The notes beneath the pieces were generated by a model that saw only the letters and a list, made by a program, of their open reading frames with translations, was not told where the DNA came from and ran no database searches. The position numbers and the translations under genes were made by a program. From assembly GCA_964354585.1 (NCBI GenBank), contig CAYHAI010000052.1:6283-70282 (forward strand): DNA of 64,000 nucleotides, in the 5' to 3' direction. Positions 1-63,477 of this stretch are shown here, piece by piece. The DNA is from an uncultured Planctomycetales bacterium. Lineage in GTDB: Bacteria; Omnitrophota; Gorgyraeia; Gygaellales; Profunditerraquicolaceae. The stretch's first letter is position 1, and every line of letters begins with the position of its first letter.

Positions 1-3000
1 TGCCTGCCTCTGCGCCCACAGCAAGCTTTCCTAAATTAAATCTTACTCCTGCCGATGGAAATACCTCTTCGTTCTTACCCCAAAGGTCATCTACGCCTTC
101 GCTAATTCTATTGGCAGCCAAAGTTAAAATTACCTTCTTTGATTCTTTTTCATAGACTTTTATTTCCGCGGTTAACTTCTGATAATTATATGCGTCATTG
201 ACTTTCAGGCGCGTCGGTGATACTTCTATCACATCATAAGTTAAGAAATCAATGATACGCGCTCCGGAGGGCTCTTTACTTTGGGCAATACCTGCGCCCG
301 CATCAAGAACCAAAGCCACGCGCGGAAGCATATCATATCTTACTGTCCCTGCTACTGCTGCTACGCTACTTCTGCCTTGCGCCTCGGTTTCTATTAAACC
401 GGTTATGCCCAGATAAATCTTTTCATTGGCCTGCCAACCAAAACTATCCACAATCAGATAATAATTCCTCTTCTCCATCTTGCCGGTTTCTTTATCCTTT
501 TCTCCATCCCAACTGGTGAGGTATCTTTCCCGGCTTTCTACGCCAAAGAGAAGATTATTCAACCATTTTGCCTGTTCAGGCTCAAGCCGCAGGCCTACCA
601 CCACATATTTGCGGCTAGGAGCATCCTTGGCATTACCTTGCACTGAGCCCACATAAGCATCAATACCAATACTATTTAAGAATCTCACTAAATCATAGGC
701 GGCTAATTGCGTGGAGACGGAGAAGTCACTTTCTTTACCGTGCTGGGGAGAGAATCTTGCTTCGGCAACCTGTTTCATATCTCCCATAAAGATTAAAGGC
801 TGGATATCGGGACGGGAAGGAACAAGAATTTTCTCACCTACTTTCACGATCAAAGGCGGACTGCGCTCTAAGAGCTTAAAGACGCTGGTTAATTGGGGAA
901 TAATGCGTTCTTGCGCTTGCGGCTGTAGGTTACCATTATCTTTTATATAATTTTCTACTGACTTTCCTAAGCCCTTCACCTTCTCGTTATATTTCTTTAA
1001 ACTTTCTGCGTATGCTTGATAAGCCGTTTCGGCAGCCTCTTTAGATTTATTAGCAGCTTGCTTTGCCTTATTTATCTGGCTGATGGCTTCTAAGCGGTTC
1101 TTATTTATCGCTGCCATGCTATGCAGGTCTTGCATTATCCTATTCCAAGGCGTACGGCCAAATCCGGAGCGCGCTTCTACTGTGACCAAGGCTTGCTCTA
1201 CCTGCTCTCTAATCCAATTCTGATATAGTTTAAGTTTCTCTAATTTATCGCCAAAATATTCTTCTAACGCGCCTTGTGTTTCTTCGATGAGCGTCTTGCG
1301 TTCAGTATAAATAGCGATTTCTTTTTCGCGGTTAGGTATCTTGCGCGCCACTACCTCAGCCGGCGTCTCAGAGGCGCCATCAGTGAGTTGATACTGCTCA
1401 TCTTTGGCTAATTCCGGAACTAAGTAATTAACTAAATATTCTCTTTCTGCGGCCAGATTATTTATCCAACGGTTGGCTAATTCTTCATGTTTTCCATGTG
1501 CTAAGGCTCCTTTCCAATAGTTCGTTTCTTCAGTAATTCTGTTTAAACGACCCATCTTCTGGGTATAAGTCGGATCCTGGTCATCCTCATAGATATATCT
1601 TCTTATTTCTGGTATAGTGTGTATCTTAGATTCATCAATGGCTGTGTTGGGGTCATCTGTGAGTTGCTGAAGCGGGAAAAGCGGCAGACCTTTGTAACTG
1701 GGCAAGACTAAAGCCTTGATTGCCTGGAGGGAATCTATCCGGTTATTCCAGACTTCAATTTCTTGGGTGCGTATGGTCTTCTTTCTGGCAATTAATTGCT
1801 GAATACTCTCAGAAGCACCTTCAGTCAGCTGATATTGTTCATCTTGATTAACTTCCTCCAATACGGCATTGCCATAAGCAAGCTCTGAGGTTAAACTATC
1901 CATTATCTTCTGAAATGCCTGCACTGCCGCAGGATAATTATTAAATATAGTCTGTTGCCTCTGCCAATAAGGCGTCTCTTCATTTTGAATTCTGGCTAAT
2001 CTTCCCATCGTCTGGGTGGCATCGGGGGAGTCGTCATCGCTTAACCAGTATTTTCTTATTTGCGCTACAGTATAAATTTCCGGATGCCCGGCAACGGGAT
2101 TGATGGGAATAATCTTAAGATTCTTATAGCCGGAAACTAAGAGGTCCCTTAAAGCATCCAGGGCATTTAACCTTTGTGACCAAAGATTAATCTCTTGACT
2201 CCTTATCGCCTTCTTTCTGGCGATTAGTTCTGAAATAGTCTCAAAGGCGCCAAGGGTCTGTTGATAACGTGCATCCCTATTGGCTTCATCTAAAACTGCA
2301 TTACCATAACTAAGTTCGGTATTTAAACTGCCTATCATTGACTGCACTGCTGCCTTCTGCTCATCCGTAGCATTGGGGCTGTTGTATTCTTTCTGCCAAT
2401 AAGGCAGGTCTTCATTTTGAATTCTGGCTAATCTTCCCATCTTTTGTTTGGCACCGGCTAAGTGGTCATCGTTTGACCAATAATCTCTTACTTGCGCTAC
2501 AGTAGGAACTTCGGGATGGCCGTCAACGGGATTGATAGGGATAAGCCGAAGATTATCCTCTGGCCCGGTGTTCCAATAATTGAGTTCGCTTTCGGCATTG
2601 GCTTGCTTTGTCTGGGTATCGGTTATCCAATTGTCTTTGACGTCATAGGGATTGCTTACTGGTTCGCTTATTTCGCTATTCCAATAATTGAGTTCGCTTT
2701 CGGCATTGGCTTGCTTTGTCTGGGTATCAGTAATCCAGCTATCTTTTACCTCATAAGGATTAGCCATTGATTGGCCTATATTCTTTAACTGCGCTAATCC
2801 TTCCTCTGCCTCTTTTAGGCGCGCCTCTAAATCGGCTGTGGAGTCCTTAAGTTTATCAATAAGTTCTTGCACCTTTTGTTCCTGAAAGGCAAAATATTTA
2901 TCCAATAATTCTTTCATTGCTGCCTTCGGGCCGATTTCTTTAGCGCGGGCTTCCATCTCCTTACATAACTGCTTATAAACCTTATCCATTTCCAAGGCAA

Positions 3001-6000
3001 TCTGGTCTATCCATTGATAGATATAGAGCTTAGAATCCATCTTAATCTGCAGTTCTTCTAAAGAACGCATCAGGTCATTGAATGACCTTCCTGTCTGCTC
3101 TAAAGATGTGCCTCTTAATTTCTTTTCCGTATTTAACCAACTAAGTTTATCTTTCTCAAACTGTGTTTGCGCCTTAATAAATTCTTCTCTTTGGACTTTT
3201 AACTGCTCTTGAATGGCCTTGAGCTGGTTAATCCTCTCCTGCATCTGGCTATCTAAGTTAATCCCTACACCGGCTAACTGTCTATCCAAATTGCTGAGGT
3301 CAGTAAAATCCAATTGCGAAAGCACAGAATAATTGAATGTATCTGTGGTCTCTGGTTTAAATTGCTCCCTCTTAACTTCTTGGGTAAAAGGAACTCTATC
3401 TTTGTAGACTTTTAGCCTGCCATCGGCAGTAATCTCAGCAGACAAAACGCCTTCTTCTTGCATCTTTTTATAAATATCTTCCGCATTTACTCCGTATTCT
3501 ACAACGCCAAATTCGCCCTCCTTTAAACCAAAACCTGACCTAAGAATCGCTACTTGCGGCTTGCCGGGTTCATTCTGGATATCTATCCTGGCTATCTCGG
3601 CATTATTTCTATCTTTGTCTTTGTAACTGATAGTTGCCTTCTGGCCATCTTCCAGCAATTGAATATTTAACTTGCGCACTTCTTCGGGAGTATAAAGATA
3701 AGCAGTGCCATAAGACGTAATTACTCTGGCTAAAGGTAGGCCGGTGAGACTATCGGGTTTAGGGACTAAAACTCCGATGCGCCCCTTGCTGCCTATGATA
3801 TCTTGCGGGATTATCTTTATGTCTTGCGGCCAGATAAACTCGGTATCGCCAATCTTTACTTTGATATCCGCAGGTAAATCTTTTACCTTAGTATCCAAAG
3901 ATAAACTTTCTTTTAAGCTCTTTTGATACTGAGAAATTTGGTTTAACTCATCAAAAATAGGTGTTGAACCTAAAAATTTCAACGTCAGAATATCTTGGCC
4001 CTGTTCGGTGTCAAAGATAAGCAAATCTGCCTTAATCTGCTGCCACTCTTCACCGTACATCTTTCTCTGCATCCAATAACTATATTGGCTAGCCACTGGG
4101 CTATAAATTGCCACTCCTAAAATGGGTGTTTTGTCCTGGCGATAACCATAGACATAGGGAAGAACTTCTGTATTCACTTTCTTACACAGGTCTAAATTCA
4201 TCTGCGTGCGCTCTGGCAATTCCTGTAGAGCGCTTAGAGGCATGTTAAAAGGCGAATAGAATATCTTTTCTACATCACCGGTAATAGGATTAACTACTCC
4301 GCCAAATATAGTGCGGCCTTCATGATCCTCACCGCTATAAATCATACATTGTTTCTCTAGGTTATCCAGCATCCAGGCCGAAGGAATGATATAAACGTTA
4401 TTTTCCTCTAACCAAAGGCCGAATTTCTTACAGAATTTCTTAGTCAATGGCTCAGCAAATCCTTCGGGCTGGTAGAACCACCTCTCACGAAAGGCTAAAT
4501 ATTTCTTCGGTTGCTTTAAGTTCGTTAAATCATAAAAATATCCTTCGGCATATTCACCATTGCGTTTAATCATATAAAGATGGTTTCTGTCCATATCCTG
4601 CGGCGCCAGCCGGGAAAATAATATTGCATTCTTGCCAAATTTTACAACCGCCTGATATTCTGCTTTTTCCCAAGGCGCTTGATTATTCGGGTCGCCAAAG
4701 AGTCCACCTATAAGCGGAAATCTTCCCAAGGTTTCTTCGGGGATAGATTTGATAATCCTAGCCGGGGTCAGGCCTAAGTAATCGGCTACTTTTTGCAATT
4801 CTCTCGGTTCTTGATTATCAATCTCAGAATTAGGAATAAATCGATTTTTAATCAATAATCCGAAAAATTCAGCTTCGTTGGGAAGCCATACTCCGCCGTT
4901 TCCTTCGTCTCTTCCTTCAGGGTCAAATTCATTATCCAGCAGAAGATTGCGCACCCCCAATATTGCCTCGGGAAGGAAAACATAAGTTAAAGGAGTTACA
5001 TTCTTCTGGGCTACTCCTAAGCCCATCTGCACCAGATTAGCTGGTTCTTGGAGTTGACTGGGTACGGCTAAACTCAGCATAAAGTTACTGCCCAGTTCCT
5101 GAGAAAAGATGCTTCCAATAGGAGAATATTGATAACCTATGCCAATAAAGAGATTGGATTTGGGTTGTTTGAAATTTATCTTCTTCTGTTCTGCCAGATT
5201 TGCGCCTGCTAATCTCTCCGGGCCAAAGAACCTCGCCATCCCATAACTATACAGATAGCCCTCTATCGCCTTCTGATATTTTTCTTGTGAAACCCAAGTC
5301 AGGTTATCGAACCTCTCCAACGATTCTCTTAATTTTTTATTTTTTTCTTCTAATTCTTGCTGCTGCTTATCTATTTTTGCTTTTCTTTCTGCCAGTTCCT
5401 GCTCTGCCTTTAATACTTCATAGCGGCGGGTCAATACATTTTCTCTCAGCGCCTTCCTGCTTTTCTCTTCAGGATTTTGCGGCTCAATTGCCCTATTTTT
5501 ATTTATCTCGTTAATCACCTGGTTTATACCAACTTGAAGGTTAGCGCCCTCTTCTGGCTCCAGCCATTTATTAGCCAAATTAACCAAATCATCTAATCTA
5601 TTACCAATTGACTGCGGTAGGCCTGCAATAGCTTGAATCTGCTGTTGGATATCCTGGATTTGCTTTTCTAATCCCTGAATCCTTAGCTCTCTTTGGGCAA
5701 TACACTCCTTGGCCTCGGCTATCTTTTTCTCAACTTCATCAAGTTTTGCTTTCAGTTCTGCTTCGGTTTGAGGCACAACTCCCAACATTGTCGCCAAAGC
5801 AGCATTATAGGCAGCATTGGCAGCTGCAGTGGGATAACCCTTAAATTCAAGGGCTTTCTGCTCGGATATAGCAGGAGAGATAAGTGAATTGAAGGCTGAA
5901 CCAATACGAAATCCAGTATTAACCGCAATATTTTGAGCAAAACGCTTAAACCATCCGGGTTGCTTTGTCTTAGGAGGACCTCTAATGTGAGGATTCTCCA

Positions 6001-9000
6001 TTCCTGCTTGCGTGACCTTTTCTGAATCAGCAGCCACCAACACACCATTAGATTCAGGCTTAATCACGGTAGCCGCCTCTTGCCCAAACATCACTGGCTG
6101 GGGCTGATTTGGCAAAACCTTACTCTGCGGGATGAGGGTTTCGGATTTTTGTTCAGTTTTTCCGCCGCCCAGCACGAAGGGACTAAAGTCCTTATCTATT
6201 AGATACATCCAGGAAGTGGAAGTAGTGCTCAACACATCCGGTGAATGTGAATTCCAGCCAAAAGGTATAGGCCCGCGCCTTGAACTATAAGAGTAGGCTA
6301 CTTTATCAGGGGCAACCTGATACTTATATGCATCTACGCCCTGACGCATAGATTTTTCGTCTTCTTTTACCTCTTTTGCCCAGTCAGGATGGGTTTTCTG
6401 ATAGTAGTCGGCAAGCGTGCGGCTGGCTAAAATAGCTCCGGCTGTCCATTCAATGGAAAGACGATCGTGTTCGCTGGTAAAACCAACACCGCAAAGCTTC
6501 TCATTTAAGTAATAACCTGCCAACTTTTTAGTTCCCTCCCACATCTTCATGGCTGAACCTTCACCAAACCATGAATCAATTAGTTTTGGCCCTAGCACAG
6601 CTATAGCCCAAGTCTGACAGTCGGTGGCAAAGTGCTCTTTATTAACTGTCCATTTACCTCCCCAGAACCTACCTTCCTGCCAATGCATACCCTGGTAAAA
6701 CGTCTTGGCATTAGAATCCCAAGCCTGCTTAAAATAGTTTTCGATCTTTCCCATAGCATTTTTATAGATTCCCTTGCCGGTTGCCTGATGCAACATTCTA
6801 AATGCGGCATACCAGGAAAGATTATTTTCTGTAGAGATTTCATTATAATACCAACTACGTTCTGTATCCGCATCCGTATAATGCGTTCCTATAGGCGCCA
6901 TACGAATACCGCCTACGTCAGACTGAAGTAACATTGCTGCCCGAGCAATCTCTTCTGCCAACGCAAGCTCAACCGAGTCCTTGGGAGCGGGATTATAATT
7001 TTCGGTCTTGATATTGTAATATTTGGCGTGATAAAGCTGCAAGGCAGCCATGGTTACCCAGGCATTTTCTCCGGCAATCGGTTTCCAGTCCTCCCAGTGA
7101 ATGGTCGGCCAAGTGGGGAATCCTTGCATTTCGGTTTTATTGTCAAGCGGGTCGGCTAAATTATACCGACCGTCAGCCGATATAATCCTGAAGATAAAGC
7201 CTCTTTTCCCTTTATCGCGGAAATAACCGGAGATGGTATTCGGATTATCTTTATCGTAGATAAATTCTTGGACTTTGCTCCCTTTCTGAAAACCAGCTCG
7301 AATAGAATCTAAAACAGAACCTCTCCAATAGATTTCAACCGGAACGCTTGCCTTTGCCACATTGTCCTTGTTGTCTGAGGCGATCAAAGCCATCTGCCAG
7401 CAAGCACCGTCATAAATTTCTAACCCATAGGCGACAATAAGGCGTTCGATAATTGCCTCTACAGTATTGGTTGGGCCTATCTCTTGATAAACTTTATTTT
7501 CTTGCCCTTTGCGCACTTGGAAACTATAAGGCAAGCCGCTATCAGCACAGATACTATTTTCCAACCACTTGAGTGCTTCATTACTCTCCCCTATTGCTAC
7601 AGTGGATAAAAGCTGGCCTAATACAAGGGCATCATTACTTGCCGCGGCAAACTGAATGGGCCTTCCGTCGGGATAACTAAGGTGCAAAATATCGTTGCTC
7701 TGGGGCTCAAGGGTTTCGGATTTTGGCGCCCAAACCTGAGCCATTGCTGTAAGAACCTTCTTGGGTGTGCCATCAATTTTAACAAATCCCCAATATTCTT
7801 CCGAGAAACGGTCTCCTGCATTGGGTCCCGACAGACTGCTAATTCCGTGCTTATCCTGTTGTTTGGGATTGCCTGCTTTCCACCACTCATCCTGCCAAGT
7901 CATAAAGGTTACACCCGCACAAATATCTTTACCTTGATCAATCGCCTCCCATATCGCCACATTTGCCTTGGCCTGAGCATCTTCATCTTCTTTTGCTTCA
8001 GCATCATTAAGGGAATCAATGCCTGTCTCCGAGATATACATCGGTTTATTGGAAATCTCACGCCACTGTTCAAAAGCAGAAGTAATATCTATACCACGGT
8101 ACATATTCAGACCCCAAACTTGCACCGATGGGCACTTATTCACAATCTCTGCCTCAGGCACTTCACCATGAGCAGTTGATACGGGATGACGAGAATCTAA
8201 CTGTCGTGCTGTCTTAGCTGCATTTTCTAATATCGGATACCAATTATTTACATTTCCGCCAAACCACTCAGGATGATAATTATATTCATTACCGAACTCC
8301 CACATTAAGATTGCCGGATGCGCTTTAAATCTTCTTATATAATCTTTGTAGCCGCCTCCTTGAATATCCGCTCCCGGACTAAATCTGTCATCGTAATTAG
8401 GAAAGTTCACAATCACTCTGATGCCGTGCTGTGCAAAAGTGTCTAATAAATCTTTTTCCGCTGGAACATAGGTGCGCACAGTATTTATTCCCGCATTTGC
8501 CATCTTTTTGATGTTTTCTATTTTTACTGAACTTAAATTCAATACTAAATTCTGACGGTCTTGACCGCGAGGAACAGTGGATAAAGTTACGCCACGAATT
8601 TGGTAGGGTTTACCAGCTACTAATAATTGTCTATCTTGAATAGTTACAGGTTGGAATTGAAGAGGTGTTGCTTTTGCTTCAAGCAGTTCTACTTTAGGCT
8701 GCGGCTCTTTTGCTTTCTTTAACTCCCCTAATTGCTTAAGGATCCGTGTCTTTTCCTGCTCATATTTCTTTAATTGCTCTTGGTCCTGCCCAAGCGCCTT
8801 TGTTTCCTGAGCCAGTTCTGCCTCGAGATTAGCTAATTTGGCTTTAAGCCCCTCAACCTGCGGGGTTACTGTGGTTGAGGACGGTTCTATTTTTCCTGCC
8901 GGCGGGGCGGTGGCATCATAAGCTTTTACCTGCGGATTAACAACATTTTCTTGATTAGTCGGATTAATCTGGCTATTATTTGCATCGGATTTAATTTCTA

Positions 9001-54063: not shown

Positions 54064-54075
54064 CTTCCTCTCCTT

Positions 54076-54339: not shown

Positions 54340-54378
54340 GTAACCCGGCTAATGTTCTCGCTTTGACCCTTAAGCACT

Positions 54379-54405
54379 GGGACTGTCCCCGCAGGGGACT
54401 GTCCC
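54379..54405. repeat. Palindromic element: two GGGACTGTCCC units separated by 5 nt
   Basis: GGGACTGTCCCCGCAGGGGACTGTCCC seen directly. The same unit pair occurs in the giant gene at 44095-44130 and 44291-44326. Confidence 0.7.
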
Positions 54406-54557
54406 TAAATTACTGGCGAGCATCATCCCGTGGCTTTGCGCAGCAGGAACCTCCATTCCCACCTTGCGTTTTCGTTGCCGCCCTACAATTGCACTTAAAA
54501 TATAACATCTGTAATCGTGAATGTCAAGAATATTTTACCCTTCTCCAGAAACCGCTT

Positions 54558-54742: not shown

Positions 54743-54771
54743 TTGACATTGGACATTTCTTATGTTATATT
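54743..54771 (+). promoter_or_regulatory. Consensus sigma70 promoter TTGACA-17-TATATT, overlapping an inverted repeat ATTGGACATTT / AAATGTCCAAT (operator-like)
   Basis: -35 at 54743-54748 and -10 at 54766-54771. The inverted-repeat arms lie at about 54749-54759 and 54786-54796. Confidence 0.5.
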
Positions 54772-54815
54772 TAAATCGAGATGATAAATGTCCAATCTAT
54801 AAAAATGGGCGAAAA

Positions 54816-56663: not shown

Positions 56664-57146
56664 ATGTCAAGGGGAGCAAGATTAACTTTAGACAACGCCT
56701 CTTATCATATCATGGTAAGAGGAAACCAGAAACAAGTTACTTTTATTGAAGAAACAGATTTCCTAAAATATCTTGAACTATTAAAACACTATAAAAAGAA
56801 ATATAAGTTTAAATTGTACGGGTATTGTTTAATGCCTAACCATATACATCTAATAATCGATATCGAGAAAGGGTCTGACGTGGCTAAGATTATGCAAGGA
56901 TTAAATCAAACATACACAATCTGGTTCAATGAAAAATATAAAAAAGTGGGCCATCTATGGCAAGGAAGATACAAAAGTATGCTTATCCAGAAAAATAAAT
57001 ATATGCTTGAATGCATAGAATATGTAGAATTTAATCCTATTAGAGCAAACATAAGCAAATCTCCTTTTGAATATCGTTGGAGCAGCTGGCAAGAACGCCT
57101 GGGTTGCAAGGAAAATACCCTACTGAACTTACCCCAATTAACTTAA
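56664..57146 (+). CDS. tnpA: REP-associated tyrosine transposase (RAYT) / IS200-like HuH transposase TnpA
   Basis: 160 aa with the HuH motif LMPNHIHLII and a downstream catalytic-Tyr region (FEYRWSSWQ). It has a strong SD GGAGGT and is flanked by inverted REP-like copies 2 and 3. Confidence 0.75.
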   Translation: MSRGARLTLDNASYHIMVRGNQKQVTFIEETDFLKYLELLKHYKKKYKFKLYGYCLMPNHIHLIIDIEKGSDVAKIMQGLNQTYTIWFNEKYKKVGHLWQGRYKSMLIQKNKYMLECIEYVEFNPIRANISKSPFEYRWSSWQERLGCKENTLLNLPQLT

Positions 57147-57186: not shown

Positions 57187-57564
57187 TTATTCTATGAGGA
57201 GGGTATCATTTTGGCAGGTGGAGGTTGATTGAATAATACCTGGGGGTAATTCAATAGCAAAAGCAGCATTAAAATATGCACAGGTAATACAGAATGGCCT
57301 TAAAGAGGTTATGGTTTTTATGACCCGGCTGTTTTTATCCACGAATAAGACATCTATAGGAAAGCGCATAAAAAAGGTATGTATGGAATTGCATGGCCTT
57401 AAGATAAGCGCCTGGCTCGGTTTAAATTCCTTTCTACCCAAAAGGCCTTTCATTCTTTTAAAAAGACTGTTAGCGATTATGGCTTCTTCGGCTAAAATAG
57501 TATTTTGGGTTTTATTAATTATCTTCATTCTTTCTTTGGGGGACACCCTTCCGATTAGTTCCAA
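57187..57564 (-). CDS. DUF192-family protein (COG1430-like)
   Basis: Motifs FKRMKGLLGR...LILRPCNSIHTFFMRFPIDVLFVDKNSRV match the DUF192 pattern. Confidence 0.5.
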   Translation of the reverse strand: MELIGRVSPKERMKIINKTQNTILAEEAIIANSLFKRMKGLLGRKEFKPSQALILRPCNSIHTFFMRFPIDVLFVDKNSRVIKTITSLRPFCITCAYFNAAFAIELPPGIIQSTSTCQNDTLLIE

Positions 57565-57606
57565 AGACGTCCCTCGATTGGATGGAAAGACGTCCCTAGG
57601 GGGATT
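57538..57606 (-). repeat. REP-like element copy 4 (overlaps the cpaF stop codon)
   Basis: Reverse complement is cccccTAGGGACGTCTTTCCATCCAATCGAGGGACGTCTTTGGAACTAATCGGAAGGGTGTCC. Confidence 0.7.
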
Positions 57607-59752
57607 TGAAGATACCTTCGGGGAGAGAGATACCTTTTATTCTGATCTCTTCAATAAAAGAAGGCACATAGCCTGTGGCTGCAAAATCTCCTAATACATT
57701 GCCTTGACCGTCAATGCCGCTTTGCTTAAACGCGAAGATATCCCTCAGGTCAATATGGATTTCGTCTTTCATCCCCGCCACTTCGGTTATCTGTAAAACC
57801 TTGCGGCTTCCGTCGGAGAGCCGGGCAGTATGGACGATTAGATCTACGGCAGAGGCAGTCATCTCGCGGATCGCCCTGATGGGAAGCTCAATGCCGGACA
57901 TTAAAATCATTGAATCAAGCCTCATCAAAACATCGTGCGTAGAGTTGGCGTGGACAGTAGTCATTGAGCCATCGTGGCCGGTATTCATTGCCTGCAACAT
58001 ATCCAGCGTCTCGATACTGCGGCATTCGCCAATAATAATCCTGTCCGGCCTCATCCTTAAGGTGTTGCGGAAAAGATCCTTAATAGTCACCGCGCCCCTG
58101 CCTTCAATATTGGGAGGCCGGGATTCCAGCCTTATCCAATGTTCCTGATGCAATTTTAACTCCGCGGCGTCCTCAATAGTCACAATGCGTTCATTCTCAG
58201 GAATAAAAGCGGAAAGGACATTCAGCAGGGTGGTCTTGCCGCTACCGGTGCCGCCGGAAACAATAATATTTTTTCTGGCTAATACGCAGGCCTTAATAAA
58301 ATCCGCCATCGGCAAATTTAAAGTCTTCAGCCCCACTAACTCTTCAATCTTAAAACGCTCTTTGCGGAATTTTCTGATGGTGAGCGATGGCCCGGTTAAA
58401 GAAAGAGGCGGGATAATCGCATTTACGCGCGAACCGTCGGGGAGCCGGGCATCCACCATCGGCACAGACTCATCAATGCGCCTGCCGATAGGAGCAATAA
58501 TGCGTTCGATAACTGTCCTTACCTGCTCATTGGAAATAAACCTCTTGCTCGTCAGTTCAATCTTGCCGTTGCGCTCCACATATACTTCGTCTTTATTATT
58601 CACCATAATATCGGTTATCGTAGGCTCAGCCAATAAGTCCTCCAAAGGGCCTAACCCTAAGGCTTCATCCAGAATTTCTTTTACCAACTTTTTCCTTACC
58701 TCTTGCGAAGAAATAAAACTACCCGCCTCTTCTACCAAGAAATTCGTCACCATCATCTCTGCCCTGTCTTTTAACTCTTTGGTCTTTCTGGGGTCGCTGA
58801 ACACCTTCAAATCTAGCCTCTTCAGATTCAATTCGGCGATGAGGCGATTATGAATGCGGCGTTTAAGTATGAGTATTTCGTCTATCTCTTCGGGCGCCGC
58901 TGGCTCAACTAACGGCTCAATTAAACCCTGCCTTTGCCAAAAATCTCCGGTTTTTTCCAATGCTAATTCCTTAAGTTGTATTTCGTCTATTTCGCGGTGT
59001 TTAATAAATAAATCTTTATCTATGACTAGTTTATGGGCAAAGGTATTTAGGGAAGAGGCGATCTTTGTCCTTGGCTTATTAATCACCAGGGGGATGCGCA
59101 GATTTATTGACTCTCCCGCTGATTTTCCGTCGGAAGGTATCTGGGCAATAATATCCACTGCCAGGTTTACCTTGACCTCTTGCCAGCTAATACTAGCCAC
59201 AGATTCCGCCCGGTTAAGCACCACCTTAATCATCGCTAAAGGAAAATGTAAAGACTGCAACGTATCTAAGGCCCATTTAGTCTGGTATATAGAGAGTATA
59301 TCCGGCGTCACTACTAAAAGAATAAGATTTGCCTGATTCAAGATATTTATAAATAACTCGCTGAAGTTCCTGCCACCATCTATAATGATGTAATCATAAT
59401 GCTTATCCAATAAGGCAAAGACTTCTGTGATTTTCTCCGGCTTAAGATGGGGTGATTGTTGCGGCCTTAAAATTCCGGCTAAAAAGTCAATGTTTAAATC
59501 CGGGCTGTGCACCGCAAAATCATCTTTTTTAAACTGCTGGGGCTGCCTTTCAAGCAGAGAGATTAAATCTACCATTGCCTTTTGCGGTTTTAGATTTAAC
59601 ATCCTGGCCATATCACCGGCCACGTGGGTGTCTAAATCAATGACGCAGACGCGCTTAAATTCGCCCCTGCTTAAGGAAACCGCCAGATTAGCGGCAATGA
59701 GGGTTTTGCCCACACCGCCTTTTGTGCTAAATATGACGATTTTCTTGGCCAT
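57596..59752 (-). CDS. cpaF: Fused CpaE/TadZ-like ParA/MinD ATPase (N-terminal) + CpaF/TadA secretion ATPase (C-terminal)
   Basis: 718 aa. The N-terminus KIVIFSTKGGVGKTLIAANLAVSL carries a deviant Walker A of the ParA/MinD class. The C-terminal half has the T2SS-E/CpaF Walker A VSGGTGSGKTTLLN plus Asp/His boxes. Its start codon lies 3 nt after the secretin stop. Confidence 0.8.
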   Translation of the reverse strand: MAKKIVIFSTKGGVGKTLIAANLAVSLSRGEFKRVCVIDLDTHVAGDMARMLNLKPQKAMVDLISLLERQPQQFKKDDFAVHSPDLNIDFLAGILRPQQSPHLKPEKITEVFALLDKHYDYIIIDGGRNFSELFINILNQANLILLVVTPDILSIYQTKWALDTLQSLHFPLAMIKVVLNRAESVASISWQEVKVNLAVDIIAQIPSDGKSAGESINLRIPLVINKPRTKIASSLNTFAHKLVIDKDLFIKHREIDEIQLKELALEKTGDFWQRQGLIEPLVEPAAPEEIDEILILKRRIHNRLIAELNLKRLDLKVFSDPRKTKELKDRAEMMVTNFLVEEAGSFISSQEVRKKLVKEILDEALGLGPLEDLLAEPTITDIMVNNKDEVYVERNGKIELTSKRFISNEQVRTVIERIIAPIGRRIDESVPMVDARLPDGSRVNAIIPPLSLTGPSLTIRKFRKERFKIEELVGLKTLNLPMADFIKACVLARKNIIVSGGTGSGKTTLLNVLSAFIPENERIVTIEDAAELKLHQEHWIRLESRPPNIEGRGAVTIKDLFRNTLRMRPDRIIIGECRSIETLDMLQAMNTGHDGSMTTVHANSTHDVLMRLDSMILMSGIELPIRAIREMTASAVDLIVHTARLSDGSRKVLQITEVAGMKDEIHIDLRDIFAFKQSGIDGQGNVLGDFAATGYVPSFIEEIRIKGISLPEGIFKSP

Positions 59753-59755
59753 CTT

Positions 59756-61348
59756 TTAATCTAAACGATAGATTATGGGAACCTCTATCCAGAGTTCCTG
59801 CTGGTCTATAGAGGAAGGAAAGGGTGGATAAGGAGAAATATTTTTTGCCGCAGAAACCGCATTATCATCCAGGACCTGATAACCCGAAGAATCTTTAACC
59901 ATCGCCTCTAAAAGCTCGCCGCGATAAGAAAGGCGCAGCTTCAGCCTTACCGTTCCCTGAAAACCCGCTTCTTTGGCTGGGCGAGGATAAGTCAAATTTT
60001 CTAAGATGCGTTTTTGCACCAACCGGGCGTATCCTGTTGCCGGCGTAGAAGTGTCTTCAACAATGGCGGGAGAAACTATTTCTGGTTTTATTTGTTTTTC
60101 TGCTTGGGCTAATTCTTTTTTCTCGCTGACTATGGTGGGGGTAAGGGCAATAAATAATTCGGTGTTGCCGCGTTCGCCTTGGCCACCGCCTAATTTAGTA
60201 ACCTTTTGCCTAAAAAATAAACCTAAGACCGGCACGTCGGCTAACCAAGGAACTTTACGCAGGTCCTCTTCGGTCTTTTGCTTGATTAAACCGCCTATGG
60301 CTATGGTCTGGCCGTCATTAATATAAAGTTCGGTAGAGGCGCTGCGTTTAGTCAAAGGATATGCCCTGGCAGTAGTCTCTGTGGCCGAACCAATAGTCTC
60401 GGCTGTGCCTACCTCGCTTACTTCCACATCTACGCCTAACTTGATGCGCTTCTCTTCGTTTACCGTGGGCCTTATCTTTAGCTTTATGCCGTATTCTTTG
60501 TATTCCACGGTGCTGGAAGTTGAGCCTCCCTCGCTAGTAGAGGTAGTGAAAATCGGCTTCTCTCCGCCCACTAATAATTGCGCTTCTTTGCCGCTTTGAC
60601 AAGCCAGCCGCGGCCGGGAGAGAACGCGCGCTTTACCTTCCTGAATTAAAGCATCTAACTTCAAGGTAAAGGCAGCCCGCGTTTCGTTTACTACTCGGAA
60701 TATTTTTGACCATGTGGTACCAGCAATAGCAGGAGAACCGCTTTCGGTAAGGGCAATGCTACCCGGCCAGGTAAAACCTAAAGTATCCGTGGCGTCTTTG
60801 CTAAGCTCTAAAACCTGCACATCAATATCCACTACTGCCTCTTCTTCTTTTATCACCAGAAGGTCAACAATTTTGTCTTTAAGCGTTCCTAAGGCAGTGT
60901 TAATCCTTTCTCTCTCTTGAGGCGTTTTGACATTACCCATGAGAATAACTTTATTCTCTTCGTCTACTGCCTTCGTGTATACCCCAGAAAGATTAAGACT
61001 ACTTAATATATTATCCACGCGGCGCTTAATTTCTTGCATATCCTCGGCAAAGACTTTTACCCGATAAGACTGCTCGCCAAAATTATCCCAAAAGACCAAC
61101 GTAGTTACCCCTGCCGATTTCGGGGCAAGGGTGATTTCGCTGGTCGTTACATTTATTACATCGGCAATGCTGGGGTTGCCGATAGCAATGCGCCGCGGCT
61201 GGCTGACCGGGATAATTTTAACCTCGCCCATATATAGCTCTAATTCCTCTTGCGCCGGGGAGGCCGCTTCATTTAAGGCATAATTATCGGCGGGAAACAC
61301 CAGAAAACCTGCAATCATTAAAGAAGTTATTAAGAAAATTTTTCTCAT
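59756..61348 (-). CDS. cpaC: CpaC/RcpA-type secretin with a C-terminal TonB_C-like domain
   Basis: Signal peptide MRKIFLITSLMIAGFLVFPA. Secretin signature VPWLADVPVLGLFFR...ELFIALTPTIV. A C-terminal extension follows: YPRPAKEAGFQGTVRLKLRLSYRGELLEAMVKDSSGYQVLDDNAVSAAKNISPYPPFP, matching the TonB C-terminal domain pattern. Confidence 0.75.
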   Translation of the reverse strand: MRKIFLITSLMIAGFLVFPADNYALNEAASPAQEELELYMGEVKIIPVSQPRRIAIGNPSIADVINVTTSEITLAPKSAGVTTLVFWDNFGEQSYRVKVFAEDMQEIKRRVDNILSSLNLSGVYTKAVDEENKVILMGNVKTPQERERINTALGTLKDKIVDLLVIKEEEAVVDIDVQVLELSKDATDTLGFTWPGSIALTESGSPAIAGTTWSKIFRVVNETRAAFTLKLDALIQEGKARVLSRPRLACQSGKEAQLLVGGEKPIFTTSTSEGGSTSSTVEYKEYGIKLKIRPTVNEEKRIKLGVDVEVSEVGTAETIGSATETTARAYPLTKRSASTELYINDGQTIAIGGLIKQKTEEDLRKVPWLADVPVLGLFFRQKVTKLGGGQGERGNTELFIALTPTIVSEKKELAQAEKQIKPEIVSPAIVEDTSTPATGYARLVQKRILENLTYPRPAKEAGFQGTVRLKLRLSYRGELLEAMVKDSSGYQVLDDNAVSAAKNISPYPPFPSSIDQQELWIEVPIIYRLD

Positions 61349-61358
61349 CTATCTCCTT

Positions 61359-62255
61359 TTATTTATTTAAAGGGACTTTTTCTTTATTCAGGCCGCGGTA
61401 TATCTCTACATATGCGCCTGCCTCTGGCTCAGCCTGCTTTACGGATTGCGACGGCGCAGTTTGCGGCATCACGTATTGAAACAGGGTATCCCAACTGGCC
61501 GGCGCTATAGGCTCTACTTTGGCATCGGTGGGCGAACGCAAAATCAATCTGAGCTTTCCCTGCTCTTGCACAAAGGCCATGAGATTTGCCTCTTGGGGAG
61601 TAAGCGCCAAAGTAATTAGCCCCCCCGCTGCTGTCTCTTTCTTAGTTTCACTTTTATATCTTGGCTGTGCGGCCATAGCCGGAGAACCTATGTCCTGGCC
61701 TACAGCCAAAATTAATACATTTTGGAACAGCGGCATTACTGCGGTTTGAGTCGCTGGTTTGCCTTCAGGGGTCTGCACCGTAATAGGCACCATGGCAATA
61801 ACATCTACATAGTCTCCGGGCCTAATCATTCCGCCCAAAGAAGCAATTTCATCTGCAGGAATAGAAATTGCCCTTTTGCCTACCGGTGTCACCGAGGCTA
61901 AATCGCCTACGCTGCGCGCTAAAGACAATTTACTTAAGGTAATCTGCTCATCCTTTGATATAGGAACGACCGCTGTCATTCCGGCAATTCTATCTAAAGA
62001 ACTTACCGCCCCCGGCTGTAAAAATTGATTGGGTACGACTTTTACGCCTAAGTCGTCAGGGCTTATAATTGCCCCCTGCGGGATATCTGTCTTGGCAAAT
62101 AATGCCGGGGTCTGGCTTGCCTGGTTCTTTTCGTATTTTCTCTGGGCAGACTCCTCGGCAACCATGCGCTGTTGATCAAGATAAACTTTAACCATAAATA
62201 CCGCGATTAAAGCCAAAACCACACCGATGATTAAAATAAGGCGTTGTTTTTGCAT
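61359..62255 (-). CDS. cpaB: Flp pilus assembly protein CpaB/RcpC
   Basis: 298 aa with an N-terminal TM anchor and a SAF/RcpC-like core. Its position is directly upstream of the secretin. Confidence 0.7.
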   Translation of the reverse strand: MQKQRLILIIGVVLALIAVFMVKVYLDQQRMVAEESAQRKYEKNQASQTPALFAKTDIPQGAIISPDDLGVKVVPNQFLQPGAVSSLDRIAGMTAVVPISKDEQITLSKLSLARSVGDLASVTPVGKRAISIPADEIASLGGMIRPGDYVDVIAMVPITVQTPEGKPATQTAVMPLFQNVLILAVGQDIGSPAMAAQPRYKSETKKETAAGGLITLALTPQEANLMAFVQEQGKLRLILRSPTDAKVEPIAPASWDTLFQYVMPQTAPSQSVKQAEPEAGAYVEIYRGLNKEKVPLNK

Positions 62256-63170
62256 CTATTTTATTTCTCCTTCCCGAATTTCTATTTTTGAATCCCGCGA
62301 AAGCTTGCCGATTAAGTCATCTATGCTTTTTTGCTGTTTAAGAAAAGTAAGCCCTTTCTTGATATCGTCCCACATTTCAGAAAGCGACCTTTGCTTGCCG
62401 CCGCGCTTGGCTTCTAATTTTAAAATGTAGTAACCGTCGGGCCCTCTAAAAATATTGCTGATTTTACCTACGTCTAAACTATCGGCAAAAGCCACCTCAT
62501 CAAATTGAGGCGCCTTATTTCCTCTTTTGATAAATCCTAAATCTCCGCCATTTGCGCTGCTGGCGGACTTAGACCTTTCTTTGGCCAAAGTAGCAAAATC
62601 TGCGCCTTGCAATAACTGAATCATTACATCCTTGGCCTCTTGCTCTGTGGAAACCATGATCTCCCTAACCTGTCTTTCTTCCGGCTCCTTGAGTTGTTCC
62701 TTATAGGTATTATAATAATCCTCTATTTCCCGCGAGCTGACATCAACTTTTTCGGTTTCCTGCTTTAACAATTCTATCATTAAAATTTCTCTTTTGTTCT
62801 TCTCTAGCGCCTTTAATGCCTCCTCATTCCTATCCAATCCCCTATCTAACGCCTCCTGATAAAGGAGTGTGCGGCGTAGGAGTTCATTTTTTAAATAATC
62901 AATCTTTTGTTCGCGCGTAGTAATCCTGGCCTCGGGTTTATTGTTCGTGGTCATTAAAGCATTGTAGGCGTCTATCTCGGCGTTTAAATCCTCCAAGGTA
63001 ATCGGTATGTTATTCACCTTGGCAATAAGCGTGCCCTTGACTTCTGTTTCGCTAGCGGGCTTGTCTTTTTTTATAGTCTTATTAGACAATAATAAATTGA
63101 TCTTATCGCAACCCAAGAAAAAAGATATCATAAAAAGAAAGATGCAGAGTATAATAAAACGCCGTTTCAT
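62256..63170 (-). CDS. SurA/PrsA-like periplasmic peptidyl-prolyl isomerase lipoprotein (parvulin domain)
   Basis: Lipobox FFLGC. Parvulin motif GGDLGFIKRGNKAPQFDEVAF...GYYILKL. Confidence 0.7.
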   Translation of the reverse strand: MKRRFIILCIFLFMISFFLGCDKINLLLSNKTIKKDKPASETEVKGTLIAKVNNIPITLEDLNAEIDAYNALMTTNNKPEARITTREQKIDYLKNELLRRTLLYQEALDRGLDRNEEALKALEKNKREILMIELLKQETEKVDVSSREIEDYYNTYKEQLKEPEERQVREIMVSTEQEAKDVMIQLLQGADFATLAKERSKSASSANGGDLGFIKRGNKAPQFDEVAFADSLDVGKISNIFRGPDGYYILKLEAKRGGKQRSLSEMWDDIKKGLTFLKQQKSIDDLIGKLSRDSKIEIREGEIK

Positions 63171-63183: not shown

Positions 63184-63477
63184 TTATTCTTTCTTGATTT
63201 CGTTGATTATCTTAATCAATAAATCGGCGATTTTAGCAATAAGATAAAAGAAAAAGAAGAAGAAGGCGTAGATTGCTAAAATAATTACGCCCATCCAACG
63301 GGGATTGCCCGGGACCATGCCTAAAATTATGGAAATTCCGCCGATCACGCCCAGAAACAAAAAAATCCAGGCAGCAACTTTTACTACTACACTGGAAGTC
63401 TTTAAAAACCCTAAATGTTCACGCATCAGCCCTCCCTCGTTTTCTTTATTTTTAGCATAAAGTTTGCTAAAACGCAA
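63184..63477 (-). CDS. Small two-TM membrane protein of unknown function
   Basis: 97-aa ORF whose hydrophobic segments mark it as a membrane protein. No homology recognised. Confidence 0.35.
   Translation of the reverse strand: MRFSKLYAKNKENEGGLMREHLGFLKTSSVVVKVAAWIFLFLGVIGGISIILGMVPGNPRWMGVIILAIYAFFFFFFYLIAKIADLLIKIINEIKKE

What the first reader, a model, noticed from the sequence alone, without database searches (positions are those of the whole stretch)
1..63477. Giant surface protein genetically coupled to an expanded Tad/Flp pilus locus: candidate attachment/attack apparatus
All genes from 63477 down to 1 are on the minus strand. The order is PPIase, cpaB, secretin, cpaE-cpaF fusion, [mobile island], 10 flp pilins, 4 tadE/F/G pseudopilins, tadB, tadC, then, after a hairpin and its own promoter and leader, the giant gene. 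Tad pili mediate tight adherence. A secreted or anchored 15,000+ aa protein armed with peptidases, a glycosidase, LysM and a PEP-utilizing domain immediately downstream suggests a dedicated cell-cell contact and cell-wall-attack or host-attachment module. I did not see a prepilin peptidase (TadV/CpaA) in the window.
Basis: inference. Interest (0 to 1): 0.8.

Follow-up and report, generated by a model that had tools for sequence, protein, structure and literature searches.

The report
Riboswitch-gated giant gene beside Tad pilus locus
This is the pilus/secretion gene cluster followed by a giant membrane-protein gene that is already described for Omnitrophota bacteria, but both the pilin operon and the giant gene turn out to sit behind c-di-GMP riboswitches, a control layer the papers I could search do not mention.

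Summary
A stop-free minus-strand frame of 14,921 codons (44764..2, cut by the window edge) follows a complete Tad/Flp-type locus. Homologues are almost all Omnitrophota.

West-Roberts et al. 2023 (bioRxiv) and a 2026 preprint already describe giant genes preceded by this same cluster: secretin, ATPase, GspF-like proteins, RcpC, a PPIase and many small pilins.

What I add:
- The giant gene's "leader" is a c-di-GMP-I riboswitch (Rfam 57.8 bits). It is conserved upstream of the homologous gene in 70 of 80 related loci, with strong covariation. A terminator overlaps the aptamer's 3' end, which predicts an ON switch.
- A second, more divergent aptamer precedes the flp pilin array. Its orthologues pass Rfam's threshold in 4 of 5 related loci; the window copy scores 30.9 against a threshold of 35.
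- The giant protein is not a simple surface protein. It has a C39 head, about 5,700 residues without membrane segments, about 36 predicted transmembrane helices, then a region carrying M28 and GH2 domains.
- The "mobile island" consists of two genes with conserved synteny.
- A palindromic element is inserted in frame in the giant gene's 5' head.

Verdict: a known kind of locus with an apparently undescribed regulatory layer. The attachment/attack function remains inference.

The parts
2..44764 (-). Giant ORF, 14,921 codons; C-terminus lies beyond the window edge
   Evidence: 0 stops against 524-1283 in the other five frames. No internal repeats by self-BLASTP. The N-terminal 300-700 aa is homologous to Omnitrophota 'C39 domain protein, partial' entries.
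43880..44527 (-). C39 (double-glycine) peptidase-like head domain, aa ~80-295, following an N-terminal signal anchor (aa 31-49)
   Evidence: Pfam PF03412 23.1 bits. AF2 pLDDT 75-93. Foldseek hits 6mpz (prob 1.0, TMt 0.69) and PCAT1 4ry2. Cys134 and His233 are invariant in 26 homologues.
44093..44328 (.). Two copies (44093-44130 and 44291-44328) of a 38-nt palindromic hairpin element inserted in frame in C39-domain loops
   Evidence: The same element occurs in frame in the giant-gene heads of 13 related loci.
10490..26665 (-). Region of about 36 predicted transmembrane helices (aa 6034-11425)
   Evidence: Kyte-Doolittle 19-residue window, threshold 1.8. There are none between aa 50 and 6033 and none after aa 11425.
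23816..23929 (-). Internal prepilin-type motif RRKSG|FTLPE followed by a hydrophobic helix (aa 6946-6983)
   Evidence: Pfam N_methyl 17.6 bits, below the cut-off of 21.2. Sequence read. Conservation could not be tested.
20702..21511 (-). PEP-utilizers_C domain (aa 7752-8021), predicted cytoplasmic by counting transmembrane segments
17732..17866 (-). LysM domain (aa 8967-9011), predicted extracytoplasmic
9167..9748 (-). Peptidase_M28 domain (aa 11673-11866)
   Evidence: E 1e-30.
8003..8347 (-). Glycoside hydrolase family 2 TIM-barrel segment (aa 12140-12254)
   Evidence: E 1.5e-8.
44784..44808 (-). Second terminator-like hairpin with a U-run, just before the ribosome-binding site and ATG
   Evidence: Conserved in L004. 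A similar site was seen in about 13 of 68 leaders.
44903..44957 (-). Intrinsic terminator whose 5' arm is the 3' strand of the aptamer (expression platform)
   Evidence: Minimum-free-energy fold. The same overlap occurs in 69 of 75 related aptamers.
44939..45076 (-). c-di-GMP-I riboswitch aptamer 1, in the giant-gene leader, with a 46-nt insert in the variable loop
   Evidence: Rfam RF01051 57.8 bits against a cut-off of 35. My own covariance model R1 gives 90.9 bits. Covariation; the G20/A47/C92 equivalents are present.
45100..45129 (-). Sigma-70-type promoter TTGACA-18-TATACT for the giant gene
   Evidence: 11 of 12 matches plus an extended -10 TG.
45244..45269 (-). Perfect 11-bp hairpin after tadC
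   Evidence: Read directly from the sequence.
45463..47235 (-). tadC (45463-46338) and tadB (46351-47235) platform genes
   Evidence: Pfam T2SSF 54.7 and 72.4 bits.
47204..51237 (-). A 55-aa Flp-like ORF, a 156-aa protein, a 684-aa TadG-like protein, an 86-aa TadE-like protein and a 375-aa pseudopilin-like protein
   Evidence: Pfam Tad 33.1 bits; TadE 18.9 bits (below cut-off); Flp_Fap 19.1 bits (below cut-off). N-terminal motifs read.
51200..54291 (-). Array of ten Flp-type pilin ORFs (56-148 aa)
   Evidence: Translations each show [G/A]QxxxEY followed by a hydrophobic helix. Weak Flp_Fap and Class_IIIsignal hits.
54312..54341 (-). Terminator overlapping the 3' end of aptamer 2
54330..54482 (-). 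Divergent c-di-GMP-I-like aptamer 2, ahead of the flp array
   Evidence: RF01051 30.9 bits, below the cut-off of 35, local E 3e-4. R1 29.2 bits. Positional orthologues reach 36.6-45.1 bits in L081, L082, L084 and L085. It has C at the G20 position.
54499..54527 (-). Promoter TTGACA-17-TATATT for the pilin operon
   Evidence: Read directly from the sequence. Conserved in L004 and L033.
54762..56525 (+). 587-aa protein with a weak N-terminal HTH match and no Pfam family; a conserved member of the locus
   Evidence: More than 405 homologues, all of similar length; those that carry a name are almost all labelled Omnitrophota. Found at the same position in 15 of 80 loci and in L081-L085.
56664..57146 (+). 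IS200-like / REP-associated tyrosine transposase (RAYT-like), flanked by repeats of about 64 nt
   Evidence: Pfam Y1_Tnp 69.9 bits. NCBIfam REP_Tyr_transpos 77.4 bits against a cut-off of 80. Repeats at 54556-54619, 56526-56589, 57148-57184 and 57535-57600. The same gene sits at the same position in L082, L083 and L085.
57187..63170 (-). DUF192, CpaE-CpaF fusion (57596-59752), secretin with a C-terminal TonB_C domain (59756-61348), RcpC/CpaB (61359-62255), PPIase (62256-63170)
   Evidence: The order is identical in L081-L085.
63491..63568 (-). tRNA-Glu(CTC) marking the upstream boundary of the locus
   Evidence: A tRNA occupies the same position in L081, L082, L083 and L085.

Best explanation
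The window holds the Omnitrophota 'Tad-like pilus/secretion cluster plus C39-headed giant gene' locus. It is organised as three minus-strand transcription units:
1. PPIase-cpaB-secretin-cpaE/F-DUF192.
2. Promoter, c-di-GMP-I-like aptamer and overlapping terminator, then ten flp pilins, pseudopilins, tadB and tadC.
3. Promoter, canonical c-di-GMP-I aptamer and overlapping terminator, then the giant gene.

In each riboswitch the 5' arm of the terminator is the 3' strand of the aptamer. Ligand binding should therefore block termination, making both ON switches. High c-di-GMP, the usual bacterial signal for attachment, would then switch on pilins, platform proteins and the giant protein together.

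The giant protein is an inner-membrane mega-protein. It has an N-terminal signal anchor, a C39 cysteine-peptidase head and about 5,700 residues without membrane segments. About 36 transmembrane helices follow, whose loops place the PEP-utilising domain inside the cell and LysM outside. The final 3,500 or more residues are external and carry M28 peptidase and GH2-like domains.

Shown here: gene content, aptamers, covariation, terminator overlap, synteny. Inferred: the ligand, the ON logic, the topology, and any role in prey or host attachment and cell-wall digestion.
For: - Aptamer 1 scores 57.8 bits on RF01051.
- A homologous aptamer lies 120-470 nt (occasionally about 1.2 kb) upstream of the C39-giant ORF in 70 of 80 Omnitrophota loci. 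Rfam's own models are passed in 27 of the 32 loci scanned, and 4 of the other 5 lack enough upstream DNA.
- Structure: 97.6% of cells are paired, 11 of 20 pairs show compensatory changes, 0 of 500 shuffles reach the observed values, and slid controls pair at 47% or less.
- The ligand-contact positions are conserved: the G20 equivalent is G in 71 of 77, A47 is A in 77 of 77, and C92 is C in 76 of 77. The contacts are as defined in PMC4744006.
- A terminator hairpin with a U-run starts inside the aptamer's 3' end in 69 of 75 cases. This is the arrangement that the paper describing the motif (GEMM) reads as 'more ligand, more expression' (PMC1950547).
- Aptamer 2 scores 30.9 bits in the window. 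Positional orthologues ahead of flp arrays reach 45.1, 41.0, 38.7 and 36.6 bits, and further copies occur in L004 and L033.
- Relatives carry a FIST / histidine kinase / response-regulator-GGDEF module next to the locus. West-Roberts et al. report PilZ genes downstream of giant genes and GGDEF domains within them.
- Synteny.
- Giant-protein anatomy.
Against: - No binding, transcription or expression data exist.
- Aptamer 2 in the window is below Rfam's cut-off and has C where Vc2 has G20, a position whose mutation cut binding 30,000-fold in Vc2. It may be weak or may bind something else.
- The ON logic rests on minimum-free-energy folds.
- The transmembrane topology comes from a crude hydropathy count, and West-Roberts et al. 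warn that such predictions on these proteins are unreliable.
- Six of the 42 loci with full upstream flanks have a C39-giant gene but no TadC within 10 kb. Seven loci with enough upstream DNA lack the nearby aptamer, and in one of them (L004) it has clearly been deleted. Neither linkage is therefore obligatory.
- The first operon (secretin, ATPase) has no riboswitch.
Confidence: 0.65

Rival explanations
1. The Tad-like cluster is not an adhesive pilus. It is a type II-like secretion or presentation machine whose cargo is the giant protein or fragments cut from it by the C39 head. A fragment with a pilin-like N-terminus would be processed by a prepilin peptidase and handled by the ATPase, platform and secretin.
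For: West-Roberts et al. read the cluster as a type II secretion-like system. The giant protein carries an internal motif, RRKSG|FTLPE followed by a hydrophobic helix. It is preceded by a K/R-rich loop that the transmembrane count places in the cytoplasm, which is the topology of a prepilin. The secretin carries an extra TonB_C domain in all relatives examined.
Against: The motif is below Pfam's cut-off and is a single occurrence. Its region has no detectable homologue in 5.8 or 1.84 billion proteins, so conservation cannot be checked. It is of the PilD/GspO type, not the Flp/TadV type used by the eleven Flp-like ORFs here. Another transmembrane helix follows about 200 residues later, so the piece would stay tethered. 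Ten pilin paralogues fit a real filament better.
Confidence: 0.15
2. Pilus and giant protein are functionally independent surface systems. They happen to be neighbours and both belong to a general c-di-GMP 'sessile' regulon.
For: They are separate promoters and transcription units. The same riboswitch also precedes unrelated large secreted proteins of 2,089 and 2,504 aa in L020 and L075. Six of 42 C39-giant genes have no TadC within 10 kb, and several genomes carry more than one C39-giant gene.
Against: Adjacency is kept in 36 of 42 loci across many species-level genomes, while sequence similarity between the giant proteins is no longer detectable beyond about residue 700. That pattern points to selection for linkage.
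Confidence: 0.25
3. The giant ORF is an assembly artefact or an untranslated pseudogene.
For: None was found. The only point is that the ORF is incomplete in the window.
Against: There are 0 stops in 14,921 codons against more than 500 in every other frame. GC by codon position is 0.52/0.39/0.38. There are no internal repeats that could mislead an assembler. Strong Pfam domains sit 23 to 36 kb into the same frame. In 77 of 80 related loci the frame stays open to the end of the stored DNA. A related giant protein has been detected by proteomics, as cited.
Confidence: 0.02
4. The aptamers sense a different cyclic dinucleotide. Rfam labels most of the orthologues as the orphan 'c-di-GMP-I-GGC' variant.
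For: Rfam assigns RF03167 to 24 of the related loci at or above its cut-off of 59 bits. Aptamer 2 in the window and in L033 has C at the G20 position.
Against: The diagnostic position of the GGC variant (G in place of A47, seen in the RF03167 consensus) is A in 77 of 77 aptamers. Aptamer 1 has the canonical G/A/C triad. The label therefore reflects overall similarity only.
Confidence: 0.1

Closest known systems
Omnitrophota giant-gene loci (West-Roberts et al. 2023, bioRxiv 10.1101/2023.11.21.568195; 2026 preprint 10.64898/2026.06.07.730766)
   Same: An N-terminal signal with a C39 domain, many transmembrane helices, and peptidase and glycosidase domains. Upstream lies a cluster with secretin (gspD), ATPase (gspE), gspF-like genes, rcpC, a Rotamase_2 PPIase and many small class-III-signal genes. 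The functional reading is attachment and cell-wall degradation.
   Different: Neither paper contains the word riboswitch. Only 14,921 aa are visible here, and no SecA_DEAD, GGDEF, glycosyltransferase or NUDIX domain occurs in that part. The PEP-utilizers_C and LysM domains found here are not mentioned there (for LysM and M28, the words do not occur in the text).
c-di-GMP-I (GEMM) riboswitches controlling pili and adhesins, e.g. Vibrio cholerae Vc1 upstream of gbpA (PMC4744006) and GEMM upstream of pilus genes (PMC1950547)
   Same: The same aptamer family, the same terminator-overlaps-P2 design that is read as ligand-ON, and the same class of target (pili, adhesion).
   Different: Here the target is a gene of at least 45 kb. 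A second aptamer of a divergent subtype, without the GNRA loop, controls a Tad pilin operon in the same locus. The host phylum is Omnitrophota. Both aptamers carry large inserts in the variable loop.
Bc1 c-di-GMP riboswitch of Bacillus thuringiensis, with a long expression platform containing two terminators (PMC11218506, abstract)
   Same: The window's leader also has two terminator-like hairpins between the aptamer and the start codon (44957-44903 and 44808-44784).
   Different: The second hairpin was seen in only about 13 of 68 related leaders. It was not tested.
Tad/Flp (type IVc) pilus systems of Aggregatibacter and Caulobacter (established knowledge)
   Same: Flp pilins, TadE/G-like pseudopilins, TadB/C, the CpaF ATPase, CpaE/TadZ, RcpC/CpaB and the RcpA/CpaC secretin.
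   Different: CpaE is fused to CpaF. The secretin carries a TonB_C domain. There are ten or eleven pilin paralogues. No TadV/CpaA is in the locus. A PPIase and DUF192 are built in.
Rickettsia palindromic elements inserted in frame in protein-coding genes (from memory, not checked here)
   Same: A short palindromic DNA element sits in frame inside coding sequence, adding a loop peptide.
   Different: The element here is only 27-38 nt. It is confined almost entirely to the first 1 kb of one gene family and is always in the same reading frame.

Membership tests
Tad/Flp (type IVc) pilus system | Flp-type prepilins (G/XXXXEY motif followed by a hydrophobic helix) | tested here: met
   Ten tandem ORFs plus one more show [G/A]QxxxEY and a hydrophobic stretch. 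Pfam Flp_Fap and Class_IIIsignal hits are only weak.
Tad/Flp (type IVc) pilus system | CpaF/TadA ATPase, TadB and TadC platform, RcpA/CpaC secretin, RcpC/CpaB, TadZ/CpaE | tested here: met
   T2SSE 216 bits, T2SSF twice, Secretin 141 bits with T2SS-T3SS_pil_N, RcpC 90.7 bits. A ParA/CbiA domain is fused N-terminally to CpaF.
Tad/Flp (type IVc) pilus system | TadV/CpaA prepilin peptidase (Peptidase_A24) | tested here: not met
   No A24 hit in any ORF scanned. None is recorded within +/-10 kb in L081-L085. It may be encoded elsewhere in the genome.
Tad/Flp (type IVc) pilus system | Assembly of a filament | not testable with these tools
   Needs microscopy.
Omnitrophota giant proteins, Archaeovorin type (West-Roberts 2023) | N-terminal signal peptide with a C39 domain; many transmembrane helices; upstream T2SS/Tad-like cluster with PPIase; Omnitrophota host | tested here: met
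Omnitrophota giant proteins, Archaeovorin type (West-Roberts 2023) | Gene longer than 90 kb; SecA_DEAD domain; glycosyltransferase, methyltransferase and NUDIX set; PilZ genes downstream | tested here: inconclusive
   None of these domains occurs in the 14,921 aa present. The C-terminus and the downstream genes lie outside the window.
c-di-GMP-I riboswitch (RF01051) | Score at or above Rfam's gathering threshold | tested here: met
   Aptamer 1 scores 57.8 against 35. Aptamer 2 in the window scores 30.9, so it is NOT met there. Its orthologues score 36.6-45.1.
c-di-GMP-I riboswitch (RF01051) | Two-hairpin structure supported by covariation | tested here: met
   97.6% paired, 11 pairs with compensatory changes, 0 of 500 shuffles, slid controls at 47% or less. 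Caveat: the alignment was fitted to the model.
c-di-GMP-I riboswitch (RF01051) | Ligand-contact nucleotides G20, A47 and C92 (Vc2 numbering, PMC4744006) | tested here: met
   Aptamer 1 has G/A/C. Across the set the counts are 71/77, 77/77 and 76/77. Aptamer 2 in the window has C at position 20, so it is not met there.
c-di-GMP-I riboswitch (RF01051) | Binds c-di-GMP and changes expression | not testable with these tools
   Needs in-line probing, ITC and transcription assays.
c-di-GMP-I-GGC variant (RF03167) | G in place of A47 in the binding pocket | tested here: not met
   The RF03167 consensus shows CGC-G-AA. All 77 aptamers have A there, even though 24 loci score at or above 59 bits on RF03167.
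Peptidase C39 (double-glycine protease) | Papain-like fold with catalytic Cys and His | tested here: met
   Pfam 23.1 bits against 22. Foldseek hit 6mpz with prob 1.0. C134 and H233 are invariant. Activity was not tested.
REP-associated tyrosine transposase (RAYT) with REP repeats | Y1 HUH transposase flanked by inverted palindromic repeats | tested here: inconclusive
   Y1_Tnp 69.9 bits. NCBIfam REP_Tyr_transpos 77.4 bits against a cut-off of 80. Repeats of about 64 nt flank the gene in inverted orientation.

The most novel reading that the evidence does not exclude
The Omnitrophota Tad-plus-giant locus is a self-contained c-di-GMP circuit. A neighbouring FIST / kinase / GGDEF module makes the signal. 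Twin riboswitches license the pilin operon and the giant gene together. The giant protein is then physically served by the pilus machine: its C39 head and an internal prepilin-type site (G6958|F6959) release a pilin-like module that the Tad ATPase, platform and secretin handle. The in-frame palindromic elements in the gene's 5' head would be a further nucleic-acid-level control or recombination site.
Probability: 0.1. Interest if true: 0.8.

Novelty: new member of a known kind. Interest (0 to 1): 0.5.

Why it matters
How and when bacteria express genes of 45 to 250 kb is an open question, and the function of Omnitrophota giant proteins is known only by inference. A conserved c-di-GMP riboswitch directly upstream gives a concrete, testable handle on both. 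It predicts the inducing signal and ties the giant gene to pilus production through a shared messenger. It also fits the PilZ and GGDEF elements already noted around these genes. The aptamer is small and could be tested in vitro without culturing the organism. It is also a compact marker, about 100 nt long, for finding the starts of giant genes in fragmented metagenomes.

Tried and rejected
- Homologues of the giant protein's middle, to test whether the internal prepilin-like motif is conserved: 0 hits in the word-indexed search of aa 6700-7400 and 0 hits by phmmer against 1.84 billion representatives for aa 6880-7260. This was a dead end.
- TBLASTN of the whole giant protein against 80 loci: similarity stops at about residue 700 even where about 4,000 codons are available. 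Comparative analysis of the body of the protein is therefore not possible with these loci.
- Self-BLASTP for internal repeats found none.
- Sequence search of the PDB with the head domain and with the 587-aa protein gave nothing significant. PHROGs and NCBIfam gave nothing useful for the 587-aa protein.
- The idea that the plus-strand segment is an invertible switch was rejected. The repeats flanking the 587-aa gene are direct, and its orientation is fixed and shared with L081 and L082.
- The idea that the aptamers belong to the orphan GGC variant was rejected on the diagnostic nucleotide.
- The Weinberg 2017 PNAS paper on variant riboswitches could not be retrieved.
- The source record could not be fetched. 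It is known only that the proteins come from an NCBI contig of 74,066 bp.
- My simple perfect-stem terminator scan missed the long bulged terminators and was used only for the second hairpin.


Full report
**Observation**

The minus strand carries a stop-free frame from 44770 to base 2. From the ATG at 44764 this is 14,921 codons. The other five frames of the same stretch hold 524-1283 stops each, and GC by codon position is 0.52/0.39/0.38. The ORF leaves the window at base 1, so its end is unknown.

Self-BLASTP finds no internal repeats. An assembly artefact or pseudogene is therefore very unlikely.

Upstream, Pfam and the translations confirm these genes:
- a PPIase
- RcpC/CpaB
- a secretin with an added TonB_C domain
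- a ParA-like CpaE fused to the CpaF ATPase
- DUF192
- ten tandem Flp-type pilin ORFs
- TadE/TadG-like pseudopilins and one more Flp-like ORF
- two T2SSF platform proteins

No prepilin peptidase is present.

**Origin and prior knowledge**

The first 700 residues of the giant protein hit 50 proteins. Nearly all that carry a name are labelled Candidatus Omnitrophota or Omnitrophica 'C39 domain-containing protein, partial'. A scan of one genome per species returned 80 loci, almost all from Omnitrophota MAGs.

West-Roberts et al. [quoted passage not shown] They list gspD, gspE, gspF, rcpC, a Rotamase_2 PPIase and many small class-III-signal genes. [quoted passage not shown] A 2026 preprint repeats the result, with 13 of 14 giants flanked by secretion or pilus genes.

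My own check agrees. A TadC homologue lies upstream on the same strand in 48 of 80 loci, and in 36 of the 42 that have at least 9 kb of upstream DNA. In 77 of 80 loci the frame stays open to the end of the stored DNA. In L083 a 40,116-aa gene follows tadC directly.

**The leader is a riboswitch**

Rfam places a c-di-GMP-I aptamer at 45072-44945 on the minus strand (57.8 bits against a cut-off of 35). It lies between a TTGACA-18-TATACT promoter and the giant ORF.

Rfam's own models found an aptamer of the same clan upstream of the giant gene in 27 of the 32 related loci I scanned. Four of the other five have too little upstream DNA to hold one.

I built a covariance model from 17 Rfam-confirmed copies. 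It found the aptamer within 1.5 kb upstream of the giant ORF, on the same strand, in 70 of 80 loci at 58-102 bits. There were no minus-strand hits at E <= 0.01 in the 1.09 Mb of related loci.

The structure is well supported:
- 97.6% of cells are paired.
- 11 of 20 pairs show compensatory changes.
- No shuffle out of 500 reaches the observed values.
- Slid controls pair at 47% or less.

The alignment was fitted to the model, which favours the structure somewhat.

The three nucleotides that contact the ligand in Vc2 are G20, A47 and C92 (PMC4744006). Their equivalents are G in 71 of 77, A in 77 of 77 and C in 76 of 77 aptamers.

Rfam labels many of these copies as the orphan 'c-di-GMP-I-GGC' variant. 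That variant's consensus has G at position 47, and none of these aptamers does. The label reflects overall similarity only, and I expect c-di-GMP to be the ligand.

**Expression platform**

In the minimum-free-energy fold of the window's leader, the aptamer's 3' strand (CCGGGUUGCCGAAUACCGA) pairs with downstream sequence. This forms a hairpin followed by UUUUUAUUU (44957-44903).

The same arrangement, a hairpin with a U-run whose 5' arm starts inside the last 30 nt of the aptamer, is predicted for 69 of 75 related aptamers. [quoted passage not shown] I therefore infer an ON switch.

A second terminator-like hairpin sits just before the start codon. It is conserved in L004 and in a minority of leaders. 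In L004 the aptamer and its terminator have been deleted, leaving the promoter joined to the remnant U-run.

**A second aptamer before the pilins**

My model also hit 54482-54330 on the minus strand (29 bits). Rfam scores this copy at 30.9 bits on RF01051, which is below the cut-off of 35 (local E 3e-4). It lies between a TTGACA-17-TATATT promoter and a terminator that overlaps its 3' end, 20 nt before the first flp gene.

To test it I anchored on the 587-aa gene next to it and fetched five related loci. All five have an aptamer at the same position ahead of the flp array, and four pass Rfam's cut-off (45.1, 41.0, 38.7, 36.6 bits). L004 and L033 have it too.

This subtype lacks the GNRA loop. 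In the window and in L033 it has C at the G20 position, so the window's copy may be weakened or altered.

In L020 and L075 the same riboswitch precedes a different large secreted protein. Relatives also carry a FIST / histidine kinase / response-regulator-GGDEF module beside the locus. West-Roberts et al. report PilZ genes downstream of giant genes and GGDEF domains within them.

Taken together, the best-supported link between pilus and giant protein is co-induction by c-di-GMP. It is not co-transcription.

**The giant protein**

Hydropathy predicts the following layout:
- one N-terminal transmembrane segment (aa 31-49)
- no segments up to aa 6033
- 36 segments between aa 6034 and 11425
- no segments after that

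Counting segments places PEP-utilizers_C in the cytoplasm and LysM, M28 and GH2 outside. That is what one expects for those domains, but it is a crude inference.

The head domain folds with confidence (pLDDT 75-93). It matches double-glycine C39 proteases (6mpz, prob 1.0; PCAT1), and Cys134 and His233 are invariant.

Beyond about residue 700 no similarity to relatives is detectable. The middle of the protein has no homologue in 1.84 billion representatives.

One detail could link the protein to the pilus machine. An internal motif, RRKSG|FTLPE followed by a hydrophobic helix, lies after a K/R-rich loop (Pfam N_methyl 17.6 bits, below cut-off). I could not test whether it is conserved, so it stays a lead.

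**The 'mobile island'**

The 587-aa plus-strand protein has more than 405 homologues of similar length. Those that carry a name are almost all labelled Omnitrophota, and almost none has a Pfam family. It sits between cpaF/DUF192 and the flp array in at least 20 loci. Its orientation differs between lineages. It is a conserved part of the locus, of unknown function.

The 160-aa gene is a Y1/RAYT-like transposase flanked by repeats of about 64 nt. It too recurs at the same position in L082, L083 and L085. Homologues lie between tadC and the giant gene in other loci.

**Verdict**

The finding is real and correctly read in outline. The locus type and its proposed role are already described. The window is a new member whose giant protein is largely unlike any other known sequence.

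The new element is the riboswitch layer. I found no paper in the searchable library that links riboswitches with Omnitrophota giant genes. It is a known mechanism applied to a remarkable target, and it can be tested directly.

Noticed in passing
window 44093-44130, 44291-44328 and 54379-54405; L001, L004, L005, L008, L019, L021, L027, L032, L043 and others: A 27-38 nt palindrome, GGGAC[A/T]GTCCCC-(3-12 nt)-GGGGAC[A/T]GTCCC, is inserted in frame twice in the C39 head of the giant gene, adding 'GL(P/S)PSEAKGTVP' to loops that most homologues lack. It occurs once more in the variable loop of aptamer 2. In 1.2 Mb of related loci, 29 of 33 arms lie in the first 1 kb of giant ORFs, at four different loops and always in the same reading frame ('GLSPQGTVP'). 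The nucleotides are identical across genomes whose proteins are only 40-60% identical. Unexplained; it could be a REP/RPE-like selfish element, an RNA structure or a recombination site.
   Followed up: partly
window 23816-23929 (giant protein aa 6946-6983): An internal type IV prepilin-like signal, RRKSG|FTLPE followed by a hydrophobic helix, lies after a K/R-rich loop. About 200 residues later there is another transmembrane helix. It is below Pfam's cut-off, and no homologues of the region exist, so conservation could not be tested.
   Followed up: partly
window 54762-56525 (+): The 587-aa protein, with only a weak N-terminal HTH match, belongs to a large family whose named members are almost all Omnitrophota (more than 405 homologues). 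It is a fixed neighbour of the flp array. It is on the opposite strand to the tad genes here and in L081 and L082, and on the same strand in L083-L085, L004, L033 and L040.
   Followed up: partly
window 54556-54619, 56526-56589, 57148-57184, 57535-57600; gene 56664-57146: Four copies of a repeat of about 64 nt, built from CGATTGG..AAAGACGTCCCT units, flank a RAYT-like Y1 transposase and the 587-aa gene. The transposase gene recurs at the same locus position in L082, L083 and L085, and between tadC and the giant gene in L001, L059, L060, L064 and L070.
   Followed up: partly
L004 9780-9860: Natural loss of the giant-gene riboswitch. The promoter is followed directly by the remnant U-run of the terminator, and the aptamer is missing.
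   Followed up: yes
L020 74-6531; L075 1451-9137: The same riboswitch precedes a different family of large secreted proteins (2,089 and 2,504 aa, with '...PAWAREGN' after the signal peptide). In L020 this gene lies in tandem with the riboswitch-controlled C39 giant gene.
   Followed up: partly
L081 18443-21767; L082 18890-21650; L083 1-684; L085 1-828: A FIST sensor gene lies next to the tRNA boundary of the tad locus in all four relatives. Histidine-kinase and response-regulator-GGDEF genes follow it where the DNA extends far enough (L081, L082). This is a possible local source of c-di-GMP. The corresponding side of the window ends at base 64000.
   Followed up: no
window 59756-61348 and 57596-59752: The secretin carries a C-terminal TonB_C domain, and CpaE is fused to CpaF. 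Both features are conserved in L081-L085.
   Followed up: partly
24 related loci: Rfam's RF03167 'c-di-GMP-I-GGC' model scores these aptamers above its gathering threshold although all carry A, not G, at the diagnostic position. This is a likely source of mislabelling in automatic annotation.
   Followed up: yes
window 45416-45449 and 54721-54796; L004 9500-9600: The motif AATGTCCAAT(CT) clusters just after tadC and around the promoter of the 587-aa gene, partly as inverted repeats, and occurs three times after tadC in L004. It may be an operator. The overall count in the window is not above chance.
   Followed up: no
window 44784-44808: A second terminator-like hairpin with a U-run lies immediately before the ribosome-binding site of the giant gene. 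It is conserved in L004 and seen in about 13 of 68 related leaders.
   Followed up: partly
window 63491-63813: An 89-aa GIY-YIG ORF (63544-63813) overlaps the 5' end of tRNA-Glu(CTC) by 25 nt on the same strand.
   Followed up: no
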